Positions 51,001-54,000 of a stretch of 64,000 bases of DNA are shown piece by piece; position 1 is the first letter of the stretch; the number at the start of each line of letters is the position of its first letter. The stretch is from Candidatus Aenigmatarchaeota archaeon. GTDB taxonomy: Archaea > Aenigmatarchaeota > Aenigmatarchaeia > CG10238-14 > SpSt-28. Position numbers: made by a program. The stretch spans positions 77,476 through 141,475 of the forward strand of contig JAVVFY010000001.1 of the NCBI GenBank assembly GCA_032249395.1. Direction: 5' to 3'.

Positions 51001-54000
51001 ACTTTAGAAAAAAGCAAAAATATGGACAAAGAGGATATTTTAAAACTAATTCAACTGAAATCAAAACTTGTTGAAAGATTGGCAGAATACGCAAAAACTT
51101 TGATAGAAGATTTCTAGAGAATGAATTTTTAAATTCCCCATCTTAATTCTAATTGGAGGTGCAAAAAAATGGCAAAGAAAGAAGAAAAGGCACTAGTTGT
51201 TAAGTCTGCTGTTAGAGAACTAGTTGGCAACTTAAGAGTATCAGAAGACTTTTGGGAAGCTTTGAATAAGAGTGTATCAGAACTTGTTAAGAAAGCTGTA
51301 GAGAGAGCTAAAGCAAACGGAAGAAAGACTGTTAGAGGAGCCGACCTCTAAATGAAAATAATAGGAATAACAGGAACTTTAGCAAGTGGCAAAACAAGCG
51401 TTAAAGATTTTTTCCTCTCCCGTTTTTCTTCTTCTTATTTTATTTCTTTATCTGACATAATTAAAGAGGAACTTCTAAAAGAAGGTAAAGAGCTTAAAAG
51501 AGAGAATTTTATAGAAAAAGGTAATGAATTAAGGAAAAGGTATGGATTCCAAATTCTTGTGGAAGTGGCAACTTTAACTCTTCCGAAAAATACTAATAAC
51601 CTAATCGTTATTATTGATGGTGTAAGAAATCCAGGTGAAGTAGAGTATCTAAAGAAGAAATTTGGAAAGAATTTTGTTTTAATTGCTGTTGATGCTCCAA
51701 AAGAGCTTAGATTTAAAAGATTGTTAGAACGAAAGAAAGAAGGAGACCCCCAAACCTTTGAAGAATTCAATGAAATAGATGAAACAGATAATGGCAAAAA
51801 TCAGCCCGAGTATGGGCAAAGAGTTGGGGAGTGTTTAAAGCTTGCTGACTATTTGATAATCAATGATGGTTCTTTAGACGAACTGAATAAAAAATTGGAA
51901 AAAATATCAAAGCTTATTCTTTCTTCATAAGAACAACTTTCGTATAGGCCGATGCCAATTGTTCAAATTTTTCAGCATCTTTTTCGCTACCAACAATGCT
52001 ACCATAATGCATTGGTATTGTGTATTTTGGCTTTATTGTTCTAACTGCTTCTACAGCCTCTTCAACATTCATCGTATAAGTTCCGCCTATTGGTAGCATA
52101 GCTATGTCGATTCTTCCTAAATTGTTCATTTCTGGAATGAAATCTGTATCTCCGGCGTGATAAATTCTTATCTTATCTATTTCTATAACATATCCAACGT
52201 ATCCCATTTCCTTTGGATGAAAAACAACACCAGGGGCTCTAAACTTGTTAACATTATATGCGGGGACTGCCTCTATTTCCGCATTGTTAACTTTTGCCCT
52301 ATCTCCTGGAATAAAATACAATATTTTTGCTACATCCGCTTTGAAATTATCAACTTTTGCTCTGCACATTTTTGAGGCAATAATTACTGCTTGTTTGTTG
52401 ACTAACATTTTAATATCATCTATGCTGCAATGATCGAAGTGGTCGTGAGTTATTAAAATTAAATCTGCATCCTTCTCTGGGATTCTAATCTGAAAAGGAT
52501 CTATAAAAATTTTTTGTTCTTTTTCTATTTTGAAAGAGGCATGACCAAGCCACTTAATTTCTATACCAAGAATCTCCATATTCAGTTTTTTAGATAATAT
52601 TTAAAAGCTTTAAACTTTAAACCATTATAAAGGAAAGGCTCTCTTTTTGTATTTTTTCGCGTGACACAATTTATATACATCGGTTTTCAAGGTAAGAATC
52701 ACCCTTCTATTAATTAAAAATGTAGCAAATTCTATAAAACTTTTAAATACAAGAAATCAATAAACTCTATGGCAATAAGCGATTTTCTACCTTTTAGCAA
52801 GAAAGAAAAAGAAGTTGAAGTTAGTGAAGTAGAGGAGTTAAGAATTCCAGAAGAAAAGGAAAAGATAAAAATAAAAGTGGAAAAGATTTTAAAGTCAGAA
52901 GATGTTGATAAAGTTGTTAGAGTTGCTAAGCAGTCTATAGTAATTGTTAAAACTCAAGAACTGCAAAAGAAAGATTTTGGATACACTCAAACACTTATAG
53001 CTAAGCTTAAAAGAAATTGTAAGCAAAACAATATTGATTTAGTTGGTACCTCGGATGGTTATTTGATTCTGGCTCCACCATTCGTTGAAATAATTAGAGA
53101 ATAGGGTGAATTTAATTTAGCGAAGACCTTCTAAGGTTAAAGAAACTAGTAAAAGAGTTAGAAAAAATAAAAGGTAGGCATACCGAATTAGTCTCGGTTT
53201 ACATACCAGCGGGCTATAATCTTTACGAAATTATCAATCAATTAGTTCAAGAAAGGTCTACTGCGGAAAACATTAAAAGTAAGTCAACTCGAAAGAACGT
53301 GATTTCTGCATTAGAAAAGATAATTCAGTATTTGCGTTTGCTCAAGAGAACTCCAGATAATGGTTTAGCAATTTTTGCGGGGAATGTTTCCGAGTTTGAG
53401 GGAAAAGAGGACATAAGGCTTTGGGCTATCGAACCTCCAGAAAAATTAGAAACCAAAATTTATTGGTGCGATCAAGTATTTGTTCTAGATCCGCTTAAAG
53501 ATATGTTAAGAGAGAAAGATGTCTATGGGCTAATAGTTTTAGATGCTCGAGAAGCAACGATAGGTATACTAAAGGGAAAGAAAGTAATAGTAAGGAAGAA
53601 GTTAGATTCGACGGTCCCAAGCAAAACAGTTAAAGGTGGTATGTGTTTACATAAATCTACATTGGTGAAGCTTTCAAACGGTAAGGAAGTTCCAATAAAT
53701 AAGATAAAGAAAGGAGATGAAGTACTTTGTTTCGATTTTACAGAAATGAGAATAAAAACGGGTATAGTAGAAAATATTTACAAAAGGAAAGTGGAGAAAG
53801 CAAGAAAAATTTTCTTCGAAAAAGATTCGCTAATAGCTAGTTACGATCATTTAATTTTCGTAAAAAAAGATAAAGATAAAATTGAAGAAAAATTCGTTAG
53901 GGATTTAGAAAAGCAAGATACAGTTTTTGTGTTGGATGGTAATGAGGTCATAGAGGCAAAAATAAAAAATACTAACGAAACTTTTGTTGAGGCTTCAATA

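What a model noticed while it worked through the whole genome (the two positions that open the first line are those of the whole stretch)
53106..53298. aRF1 gene has no in-frame start codon: conserved GTG-N6-ATT-TAG leader points to an RF2-like programmed +1 frameshift
The conserved N-terminal 61 codons of aRF1 (C1:130591-130773, with the NIKS motif) are open but hold no ATG, GTG or TTG and are preceded in frame by TGA and TAA. Ten nucleotides upstream a GTG opens a 4-codon frame, GTG AAT TTA ATT TAG, whose stop overlaps the aRF1 frame, so that a +1 slip of the P-site tRNA from AUU to UUU continues with AGC GAA GAC ... = aRF1. The same layout (GTG, six variable bases, ATT, TAG or TAA, aRF1 in +1) is kept in all seven other assembled genomes of the genus, in G099 of the sister genus and in G088, whereas more distant relatives start aRF1 with a normal ATG at the same place. 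This mirrors the autoregulatory CUU-UGA-C frameshift of bacterial prfB: termination a [...]
Evidence so far: Codon list; same analysis in 11 relatives: leader present in G110-G116 and G099, no canonical start in 62 codons in G112, ATG starts in G103, G107, G108. Pattern GTGNNNNNNATTTAR-N15-40-AARGARYTNGARAAR: one hit each in 9 of 118 order genomes, all at the aRF1 5' end, reversed control 0. The 50 codons before the called start show 547 synonymous against 140 non-synonymous codon differences over all pairs of 8 genus genomes, so they are translated. Swiss-Prot alignment of the called gene starts at residue 65 of Thermococcus aRF1. No paper on archaeal release-factor frameshifting found.
(Added by a program. 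Inside this text positions count along the whole contig: contig position 77,476 is position 1 of the stretch shown here. "Call 12" and the like, gene names such as g00115 and contig names such as C1 are that model's own, and its searches are not shown. The text may have been shortened before it was handed on; [...] marks where a part breaks off. The agent that wrote the report below was given it as the finding of a first reader that could run no searches.)

Follow-up and report, generated by a model that had tools for sequence, protein, structure and literature searches.

The report
Archaeal release-factor gene needs frameshift
The only gene for the protein that ends translation in this small archaeon has no normal start codon; a strictly conserved "AUU, then stop" signal suggests the ribosome must slip forward one base to make the protein, probably as a self-regulating switch like the one known in bacteria.

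Summary
The single aRF1 gene of this genome opens at 53116 (TTT AGC ...). Its first in-frame ATG/GTG/TTG is at codon 62. It is preceded by GGTGA-N5-ATT-TAG-C, with aRF1 in the +1 frame.

The same layout (Shine-Dalgarno, spacer, ATT, stop, usually C, aRF1 in +1) occurs in 58 of 101 aRF1 loci of the order. It spans 22 genera of four families. Two genomes of other families in the same class also have it. Their relatives carry SD-N5-8-ATG at the same place.

- **Conservation:** A-T-T-T-A-R is invariant in 22 of 22 genus representatives.
- **The stop:** it is TAA or TAG in 56 of 57 loci, and the next base is C in 43 of 56, although C is the rarest base after real stops in this genome.
- **The GTG:** it is most likely the core of the Shine-Dalgarno sequence, not a start. 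It is absent or out of frame in 12 of 57 loci that keep ATT-stop.

Best reading: SD-led initiation on AUU, a stop in the A site, then a +1 shift, with aRF1 competing at that stop (RF2-like feedback). No experimental data exist. I found no paper reporting this in archaea.

The parts
52769..53104 (+). Upstream ORF (111 aa, weak SepF-like) ending in TAG 53102-53104, directly before the SD. aRF1 is the next gene on the same strand.
   Evidence: ORF. (SepF E 0.0016, below Pfam's cut-off). RNA-library contigs X16 record 5 (52850-53210) and X17 record 8 (52954-53171) run from this ORF across the aRF1 5' end.
53105..53109 (+). Shine-Dalgarno sequence GGTGA.
   Evidence: Complementary to the 16S rRNA 3' end GGATCACCTCCT. 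GGTG at -10..-7 in 19-21 of 22 genus representatives. Replaced by GGAGG, GGGATC or GGGGAT in others. In G000, GGTG lies at -9 to -12 before 46 of 519 ATG-first ORFs.
53115..53117 (+). ATT: proposed initiation codon and P-site shift codon (0 frame).
   Evidence: Invariant in 57 of 57 ATT-type loci and 22 of 22 genus representatives. It occupies the place of ATG in ATG-type relatives.
53118..53121 (+). TAG followed by C: the 0-frame stop codon in a weak-looking context. Its T is the base skipped or re-paired in the +1 shift.
   Evidence: A stop is present in all 57 loci: TAA 35, TAG 20, TGA 1 among the 56, and TAG in G050. The next base is C in 43 of 56. Real stops of G000 are followed by C in only 40 of 521.
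53116..54735 (+). aRF1 reading frame (+1 relative to ATT): 539 codons plus stop. eRF1 domains 1-3, NIKS 53269-53280, YxCxxxF 53461-53481.
53644..54066 (+). Mini-intein (141 aa, C...HN|S) inserted after KGGM at the position of the GGQ motif.
   Evidence: Pfam Intein_splicing and Hint. Boundaries. Intein-less relatives read KGGMSQ contiguously.

Best explanation
aRF1 is made by a programmed +1 shift at the very start of the message.

Proposed steps:
1. The Shine-Dalgarno sequence GGUGA places the ribosome on AUU, a weak near-cognate start codon.
2. The next codon in that frame is a stop (UAG or UAA, usually followed by C).
3. If aRF1 is plentiful, it binds that stop and the one-codon 'start-stop' ends without product.
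4. If aRF1 is scarce, the A site stays empty. The weakly paired initiator tRNA slips from AUU to UUU, or the incoming tRNA reads AGC/AAC one base downstream. Translation then continues in the aRF1 frame.

The gene would thus sense its own product, as bacterial prfB does.

**Shown:** the layout, its strict conservation, its restriction to aRF1, and the absence of any usable in-frame start.
**Inferred:** that AUU is the start, that the shift happens on the ribosome, and that aRF1 level controls it.
For: 1. There is no in-frame canonical start before codon 62, yet the region is conserved eRF1 domain 1 under purifying selection. In 42 of 57 ATT-type loci the first canonical in-frame start lies after codon 8; in 23 it lies after the invariant GRHTEL.
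2. The layout occurs in 58 of 101 loci of the order and in 2 genomes of other families. A-T-T-T-A-R is invariant in 22 of 22 genus representatives while flanking bases vary.
3. AAC is used 24 times against AAT 2, and AGC 18 against AGT 2, as the first +1 codon. Yet G000 prefers AAT 2:1 and uses AGT and AGC about equally. C after a stop is the rarest context at real gene ends, 40 of 521. This points to selection on the nucleotide after the stop.
4. TGA occurs once in 57 loci, although GA starts the second codon in 9 of 21 ATG-type genus representatives.
5. The SD matches the 16S 3' end and sits at initiation distance from ATT. ATG-type relatives have SD-N5-8-ATG at the same place.
6. ATT-stop is kept where GTG is lost: 11 loci without GTG, 1 out of frame, 1 with TGA in between. 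In genus g33 all 10 loci keep ATT-stop and 4 lack GTG.
7. In G000 aRF1 is the only gene with an SD plus ATT-stop where the +1 ORF opens at the site, and no gene uses an SD-led in-frame ATT start.
8. Two RNA-library contigs cross the site with no insertion or deletion.
Against: - There is no ribosome, peptide or reporter evidence.
- Initiator tRNA (anticodon CAU) would keep only one base pair on UUU after slipping.
- AUU initiation is not seen at any other SD-led gene of G000.
- GTG-N6-ATT is nearly invariant where GTG exists (45 of 46), whereas ATG-type relatives vary from N5 to N8. This tight, in-frame spacing is what a GTG-initiated leader would predict, although a mechanical role of SD spacing would also explain it.
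- About 76% of ATG-type genus representatives have a second codon starting AA, AG or GA. A stop after ATT-T is therefore partly expected from the protein sequence alone.
- The RNA contigs could derive from DNA in the libraries, and contigs drop rare variants.
Confidence: 0.55

Rival explanations
1. Translation starts at the GTG inside GGTGA, makes a 4-codon leader (GTG-NNN-NNN-ATT), and tRNA-Ile slips +1 from AUU to UUU at the stop. The same RF2-like feedback applies.
For: - GTG lies exactly six bases before ATT in 45 of 57 loci, against N5-N8 in ATG-type relatives.
- Only 1 of these 45 has a stop between GTG and ATT.
- tRNA-Ile (GAU, present in G000) would keep 2 of 3 pairs on UUU, better than initiator tRNA.
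- The base triplet before ATT is moderately conserved (TGT; 15-16 of 22), as an E-site codon might be.
Against: - Eleven of 57 loci have no GTG, 1 has it out of frame (G050, N7) and 1 has TGA in between (G096). Nine have no ATG/GTG/TTG at all in the 0-frame leader.
- In G338 the GTG is at N5.
- GTG has no SD of its own; it is itself the SD core.
- Avoidance of frame-0 stops in the spacer is not significant (1 of 57 against 7 and 6 in the other frames; 1, 2 and 1 of 22 genus representatives).
Confidence: 0.2
2. No frameshift. The ribosome initiates directly in the aRF1 frame by an unknown non-canonical route (for example on UUU, on a four-base AUUU, or on a Leu TTG a few codons in). The overlapping stop is then a by-product of the N-terminal residues.
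For: - The second codon of ATG-type relatives often begins AA, AG or GA, so T+AA/AG arises easily.
- Fifteen of 57 loci have a TTG, ATG or GTG at codons 5-8.
Against: - ATTTAR is invariant and C after it is enriched against codon preference. TGA is nearly absent although GAx is the commonest second codon in ATG-type relatives.
- The TTG codons are Leu of the conserved LKKL motif. They have no SD and are replaced by CTN or TTA in most loci.
- UUU is not a known start codon (recalled knowledge).
Confidence: 0.15
3. The frame is corrected at RNA level (polymerase slippage or editing at ATTTA), so the mRNA carries an in-frame start.
For: A run of three T lies at the site.
Against: - Two RNA-library contigs from two runs cross the site collinear with the DNA, with no indel listed.
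- T3 is far shorter than known slippage tracts (recalled knowledge).
- Removing one T would still leave ATT, not ATG.
Confidence: 0.03
4. Assembly error or pseudogene.
For: None beyond the missing start.
Against: - The same layout is found in 58 independently assembled genomes.
- It is the single aRF1 copy.
- The frame is intact for 539 codons and shows purifying selection.
Confidence: 0.01

Closest known systems
Bacterial prfB (RF2) autoregulatory +1 programmed frameshift, CUU UGA C with an upstream SD-like element
   Same: - It is a class-I release-factor gene whose main frame is +1 to a short upstream frame ending in a stop that the product reads.
- The shift codon is NUU, so the +1 codon is UUU.
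- C follows the stop.
- An SD-type sequence lies upstream.
- It is present in many members of a clade and lost in others (prfB distribution: abstract of PMC12421855 in the listing).
   Different: - The protein is unrelated in fold and sequence (aRF1, not RF2).
- The upstream frame is 1 codon (or 4), not about 25.
- The shift codon is AUU, not CUU.
- The stop is UAA or UAG, not UGA.
- The SD lies at initiation distance (GGTG-N6), not 3 nt from the shift codon (prfB spacing recalled).
- The P-site tRNA is probably the initiator tRNA.
Mimivirus R726 / Megavirus mg280 eRF1-type release-factor recoding (Jeudy et al. 2012, PMC3521657; abstract and passages read)
   Same: An eRF1/aRF1-type release factor whose synthesis requires recoding at internal stops. 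It is interpreted as autoregulation.
   Different: - It is viral, and it needs two events (a frameshift plus a readthrough) inside the gene.
- The paper states that such elements are absent from archaeal and eukaryotic homologues.
- Here the gene is cellular, there is one event, and it occurs at the first codon.
Bacterial infC (IF3) AUU start-codon autoregulation (recalled, no call)
   Same: A translation-factor gene begins with AUU, so its expression depends on the fidelity step that the factor family controls.
   Different: The infC AUU is in frame and no stop or frameshift is involved. The sensed factor is an initiation factor.
Eukaryotic start-stop (AUG-stop) elements in 5' leaders (title and abstract of PMC13338717 in the listing; plant NIP5;1 AUG-UAA recalled)
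   Same: [quoted passage not shown]
   Different: Those elements are upstream, separate from the main ORF, use AUG and act by stalling or re-initiation. Here the element overlaps the main ORF, which is reached by a +1 shift.
Ornithine decarboxylase antizyme +1 frameshift at UCC UGA (PMC1874602 abstract in the listing)
   Same: An autoregulatory +1 shift at the codon before a stop. Re-pairing is not required.
   Different: It is eukaryotic and senses polyamines. It has a long ORF1 and downstream RNA stimulators. No conserved RNA structure was found here.

Membership tests
Archaeal class-I release factor aRF1 (eRF1 family) | eRF1 domains 1, 2 and 3 | tested here: met
   Pfam eRF1_1 E 5.7e-16, eRF1_2 E 1.3e-31, eRF1_3 E 3.7e-22, all above cut-off.
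Archaeal class-I release factor aRF1 (eRF1 family) | Stop-codon recognition motifs NIKS and YxCxxxF | tested here: met
   NIKS at residues 52-55 and YWCDQVF at 116-122.
Archaeal class-I release factor aRF1 (eRF1 family) | Catalytic GGQ motif | tested here: not met
   The gene reads GGM, then the intein, then SQGRY. M aligns with Q of GGQ in Aeropyrum pernix aRF1 3AGK (GGQSQRRY). The motif is GGxSQ, as reported for VLRF-1 families (PMC6514570, passage read). By its three domains and by being the only copy, it is still the organism's aRF1.
prfB-type programmed +1 frameshift | Release-factor ORF in the +1 frame of a short ORF that ends in a stop read by the product | tested here: met
   ATT TAG with aRF1 at +1, in 58 of 101 loci. 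That aRF1 reads UAG and UAA is inferred from its family.
prfB-type programmed +1 frameshift | Slippery P-site codon that re-pairs in +1 (CUU to UUU) | tested here: inconclusive
   AUU to UUU. With tRNA-Ile 2 of 3 pairs are kept; with initiator tRNA 1 of 3. Sequence alone cannot decide.
prfB-type programmed +1 frameshift | Stop followed by C (poor termination context) | tested here: met
   C in 43 of 56 loci and 17 of 22 genus representatives.
prfB-type programmed +1 frameshift | SD-like stimulator 3 nt upstream of the shift codon | tested here: not met
   An SD is present, but GGTG is followed by 6 nt before ATT. That is initiation-type spacing, like ATG genes of G000. The prfB spacing is recalled.
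prfB-type programmed +1 frameshift | Homology to bacterial RF2 | tested here: not met
   The protein is eRF1-type. No PF00472 (RF-1 domain) hit anywhere in G000.
prfB-type programmed +1 frameshift | Demonstrated frameshift product and feedback by the factor | not testable with these tools
   Needs peptide, reporter or ribosome-profiling data.
Start-stop element | [quoted passage not shown] | tested here: inconclusive
   ATT-TAG is adjacent and SD-positioned. That AUU is used as a start is inferred, not shown.

The most novel reading that the evidence does not exclude
In many Aenigmatarchaeota, ribosomes shift frame directly from the initiation codon. A one-codon ORF (AUU, carrying initiator tRNA and with an empty E site) followed by UAA/UAG-C would act as a minimal sensor of release-factor activity, and the +1 shift would be the only route to aRF1.

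If so, this would be:
- the first cellular case outside bacteria of release-factor autoregulation by recoding;
- the first natural programmed frameshift with initiator tRNA in the P site;
- an independent invention of the prfB logic on an unrelated protein, one that has also replaced the universal GGQ by GGxSQ.
Probability: 0.45. Interest if true: 0.9.

Novelty: new variant of a known kind. Interest (0 to 1): 0.8.

Why it matters
Feedback control of a release factor by a frameshift at a stop codon is a textbook case, but one known only for bacterial RF2 and, in a different form, for giant-virus eRF1-like genes. The 2012 giant-virus paper states that it is absent from archaea and eukaryotes (PMC3521657).

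- A conserved archaeal version on the unrelated aRF1 would show that this control logic evolved independently.
- It would give a compact natural +1 signal of about 17 nt (SD, spacer, AUU-UAR-C) for testing how archaeal ribosomes keep frame at the first codon.
- Practically, gene callers truncate or miss the N-terminus of aRF1 in these genomes. The called start at 53299 removes 61 residues, including NIKS.

Tried and rejected
- **Classification script.** The first version mis-assigned 10 loci, because ATTTAA also occurs in the 3' end of a conserved upstream gene. I redid it with a positional limit. G050 was then added by eye and by motif.
- **RNA structure.** RNAalifold on 22 genus representatives (-30 to +66) predicted 0 base pairs.
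- **Frame-0 stop avoidance in the 6-nt spacer** (a test for a translated GTG leader). Counts were 1 of 57 against 7 and 6 in the other frames, and 1, 2 and 1 of 22 genus representatives. This is not decisive.
- **Other SD-led ATT starts in G000.** None found: ATG 36, GTG 5, TTG 3, the rest at noise level.
- **tRNA scan (ARAGORN).** Two 'tRNA-Stop(tta)' calls carry predicted introns. The anticodon depends on where the program puts the intron, so I treat them as probable mis-calls, not suppressors. No unusual initiator tRNA was identified.
- **GTDB-wide pattern with a GGTG-N6 prefix**. It gave 50 hits: 10 in bacterial records (taken as chance, not inspected). The rest were titled Aenigmatarchaeota or uncultured archaeon, plus one titled Micrarchaeota. 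No other archaeal group turned up. The pattern requires GR[HG]TEL codons, so this is a lower bound.
- **Outside the order**. G162, G264 and G369, and G097 inside the order, are false matches with a normal ATG. G272 is ambiguous, with an in-frame GTG.
- **RNA libraries**. They are contigs only and cover parts of the stretch. Uncovered parts say nothing, and expression level or transcript ends cannot be read from them.
- **Earlier notes of this scan.** Look-ups by place (near) and by sequence returned nothing; so did the six-word query.
- **Paper searches.** Two were rejected for a term beginning with '+' and re-sent without it.
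Full report
**What is in the window**

At 53102-53121 the sequence reads TAG GGTGA ATTTA ATT TAG C.
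- TAG 53102-53104 ends an upstream 111-codon ORF.
- GGTGA is at 53105-53109, ATT at 53115-53117 and TAG at 53118-53120.
- The aRF1 frame is +1 relative to ATT. It opens at 53116 (TTT AGC GAA GAC ...), right after an in-frame TAA (53113-53115), and runs 539 codons to 54735.
- Its first in-frame ATG, GTG or TTG is GTG 53299, codon 62.

The startless part is genuine aRF1.
- Pfam eRF1_1 matches residues 9-131 over the whole profile. NIKS lies at 53269-53280.
- Among the eight genomes of the genus, 57 aligned codons of this part show 633 synonymous against 188 non-synonymous pairwise codon differences.
- The genome (752,806 bases, 89.5% complete) has only this one aRF1 and no bacterial-type RF domain.

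**How common the layout is**

aRF1 was found in 110 of 118 genomes of the order. I examined the 5' ends of 100 loci from 99 genomes. Thirty came and 70 were fetched.
- After correcting a first faulty classification (one search corrected), 56 loci have ATT, then a stop, with aRF1 in +1 and no in-frame ATG. Another 42 have ATG, 1 has GTG or TTG and 1 was unclassified.
- The unclassified locus (G050) has the same ATT TAG C further upstream, before a longer N-terminus. G014 was added by a pattern scan. The total is 58 of 101 loci.
- They fall in 22 genera of families f1, f3, f5 and f6. All eight f3 genera examined have it. The loci examined from f2, f4 and f7, genera g3 and g4 of f1, and many f6 genera have ATG.
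- On a weakly resolved tree of the N-terminal domain, the trait needs at least 11 changes. Well-supported branches force at least 3, and shuffled labels need 32 on average.
- Outside the order but in the same class, G263 and G338 have true ATT-stop aRF1 genes.
- In a scan of one genome per prokaryotic species with a stricter pattern, the hits were Aenigmatarchaeota-titled or untitled archaeal records, one record titled Micrarchaeota, and ten bacterial records that I take for chance.
- Woesearchaeota-titled relatives all start with ATG.
- Relatives at 60-87% identity are titled Candidatus Aenigmatarchaeota.

**What is conserved**

With one representative per genus (n = 22), A-T-T-T-A-[A/G] is invariant.
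- The next base is C in 17 of 22.
- GGTG occupies -10 to -7 in 19-21 of 22. Other positions vary.
- Over the 56 loci the stop is TAA 35, TAG 20 and TGA 1, and the following base is C in 43.

The C is not explained by the protein.
- The first +1 codon is AAC 24 times against AAT 2, and AGC 18 times against AGT 2.
- Yet G000 uses AAT twice as often as AAC, and AGT about as often as AGC.
- At real gene ends of G000, C is the rarest base after a stop, 40 of 521. All three stops are in use there: TAA 270, TGA 138, TAG 113.

The near absence of TGA is also notable, because GA starts the second codon in 9 of 21 ATG-type genus representatives. A caveat: about three quarters of ATG-type second codons begin AA, AG or GA. 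The mere presence of a stop after ATT-T is therefore only moderately informative.

No conserved RNA structure was predicted around the site.

**Is the GTG a start?**

Three things argue against this as the general mechanism.
1. GTG is the core of GGTGA, which is complementary to the 16S rRNA 3' end ...GGATCACCTCCT of this genome. GGTG is found 9-12 bases before ATG in 46 of 519 long ORFs of G000.
2. ATG-type relatives have GGTG-N5-8-ATG, with ATG where ATT sits.
3. The GTG is dispensable.
   - Eleven of 57 ATT-type loci have no GTG. They carry GGAGG, GGGATC, GGGGAT, GGTC or GGTA, which are other SD variants or decayed ones.
   - G050 has GTG out of frame, and G096 has TGA between GTG and ATT.
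   - Nine loci have no ATG, GTG or TTG anywhere in the 0-frame leader.
   - In genus g33 all ten loci keep ATT-stop while four lack GTG.
   - In G338 the GTG is five bases from ATT.

In several genera aRF1 directly follows a conserved gene ending ...FEKDLKAMHNIV-stop, whose stop abuts the SD. In G000 it follows a weakly SepF-like ORF by one base. This is the situation in which archaea use SD-led internal initiation (general knowledge).

Where GTG exists it is six bases from ATT in 45 of 46 loci, a much tighter spacing than in ATG-type genes (10 of 23 at N6). That would follow from a reading-frame constraint. It would also follow if SD spacing is part of the shift mechanism, as it is in prfB (recalled).

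**Specificity**

In G000, 25 sites combine an SD-like sequence, ATT-stop and a +1 frame open for at least 100 codons. Only aRF1 has the +1 frame opening at the site together with a long startless stretch. No SD-led gene uses an in-frame ATT start. The device is gene-specific.

**RNA evidence**

Four metatranscriptome runs hold parts of the stretch as assembled contigs at 95-99% identity. Two contigs (X16 record 5, 52850-53210; X17 record 8, 52954-53171) cross the site and join the upstream ORF to aRF1. No insertion or deletion is listed.
- This argues against correction at the RNA level and fits co-transcription.
- However, contigs drop rare variants, and DNA may be present in RNA libraries.

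**Mechanism proposed**

The SD places the ribosome on AUU, and the A site then holds UAA or UAG followed by C. aRF1 competes with a +1 shift that brings AGC or AAC into the A site.

Conditions that favour +1 shifting in studied systems all apply (recalled from the prfB, yeast Ty and antizyme literature; not tested here):
- a near-cognate, weakly paired P-site tRNA;
- an empty E site at the first codon;
- a slowly decoded stop in a poor context.

AUU is the only AUN codon whose +1 codon (UUU) keeps the central A:U pair with either tRNA-Ile or initiator tRNA. This may explain its invariance. The product would begin Met-Ser-Glu-Asp..., the same length as ATG-type homologues. For example, G048 reads ATG GAG ACG GAG GAA where its congener G047 reads ATT T AAC ACA GAA GAA.

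Negative feedback by aRF1 is an inference from the logic of the layout and the analogy with prfB.

**Literature**

I found no report of recoding in a cellular archaeal aRF1 gene.
- Searches.
- Jeudy et al. 2012 (PMC3521657; abstract, author summary and discussion passages read) describe frameshift plus readthrough in giant-virus eRF1-type genes. They state that such autoregulatory elements are absent from archaeal and eukaryotic homologues.
- The 2021 review of recoding in archaea (PMC8211752, term search only) does not contain 'aRF1'. It mentions release factors only in general terms.
- The first 300,000 characters of the 2016 frameshifting review (PMC5009743, term search only) contain no mention of aRF1.
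- Subscription journals are not covered by the library.
- Earlier unchecked AI notes of this scan report an aRF1 with a 3-4 codon mini-ORF and +1 site in another genome, and a viral aRF1 with CTT-TGA-C. They agree with this reading but are not independent evidence.

**Side observation**

This aRF1, and all those of the order that I looked at, lack the universal GGQ.
- They read KGG-M/W/F-SQ. M aligns with the Q of GGQ in Aeropyrum pernix aRF1, which reads GGQSQRRY.
- The GGxSQ form is reported for VLRF-1 release-factor families (PMC6514570, passage read).
- In G000 a 141-residue mini-intein sits between GGM and SQ (53644-54066).

**Verdict**

- The layout is real, ancient within the clade, under strong selection and specific to aRF1.
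- A +1 recoding event at AUU-UAR is the best explanation (about 0.75 for any ribosomal +1 shift).
- AUU as an SD-led start-stop is more likely than a GTG-initiated leader.
- It works like prfB but is not a member of that family.

Noticed in passing
window 53632-53643 and 54067-54081; L181-L186, L224-L226: The universal catalytic GGQ of class-I release factors is replaced. The extein reads KGGM|SQGRY, and intein-less relatives read KGGMSQ, KGGWSQ or KGGFSQ. Some read GGWSA, with no Q two residues on. M aligns with Q of GGQ in A. pernix aRF1 (3AGK, GGQSQRRY). Woesearchaeota-titled relatives and some Aenigmatarchaeota-titled ones keep GGQS. The form matches the GGxSQ motif described for VLRF-1 families (PMC6514570). 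No paper in the library co-mentions GGQ and Aenigmarchaeota.
   Followed up: partly
window 53644-54066: A 141-residue mini-intein (C...VHN|S) is inserted at the GGx/S junction of aRF1. All 30 full-length loci carry an intein at this site, of different sizes (gene lengths about 535-830 aa). Many other genomes of the order have an intein-less gene of about 400-420 aa. Earlier notes of this scan describe the same intein site in other DPANN genomes.
   Followed up: partly
L031, L060, L078, L100 (N-terminal domain): Some lineages of the order have NVKDK or NVKSR in place of the stop-codon-recognition motif NIKS(K). This is a possible change in stop-codon reading.
   Followed up: no
L020, L021, L031, L064, L079 upstream of aRF1: In several genera aRF1 directly follows a conserved gene whose product ends ...FEKDLKAMHNI(V/A). 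Its stop codon abuts or overlaps the aRF1 Shine-Dalgarno sequence. The identity of that gene was not determined. In G000 the upstream gene is different (weakly SepF-like, 52769-53104).
   Followed up: partly
G088 contigs C113 and C172 (L009, L048): G088 holds two aRF1 genes. One is nested inside genus g1 on the tree (ATT-stop type) and one is typical of its own genus g41 (ATG type). This probably reflects a mixed bin rather than a paralogue.
   Followed up: partly
G000 whole genome: No second eRF1_2-domain gene was detected with PF03464 at E up to 1, so no Pelota/aDom34 was seen. The genome is 89.5% complete.
   Followed up: no
G000 C5:36039-36152 and C9:29202-29327: ARAGORN calls two intron-containing 'tRNA-Stop (anticodon tta)'. 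The anticodon depends on where the intron is placed, so these are probably ordinary tRNAs mis-read by the program. They would be worth a proper intron-aware check, since a UAA reader would matter for the shift site.
   Followed up: partly
G000 C14, minus strand, about 7972: This is the only other G000 site that loosely resembles the aRF1 signal. It reads GGGTGA-agca-ATT TAA A, with a +1 frame open for 132 codons that starts 5 codons upstream. The first canonical start is at codon 7. It is probably chance.
   Followed up: no
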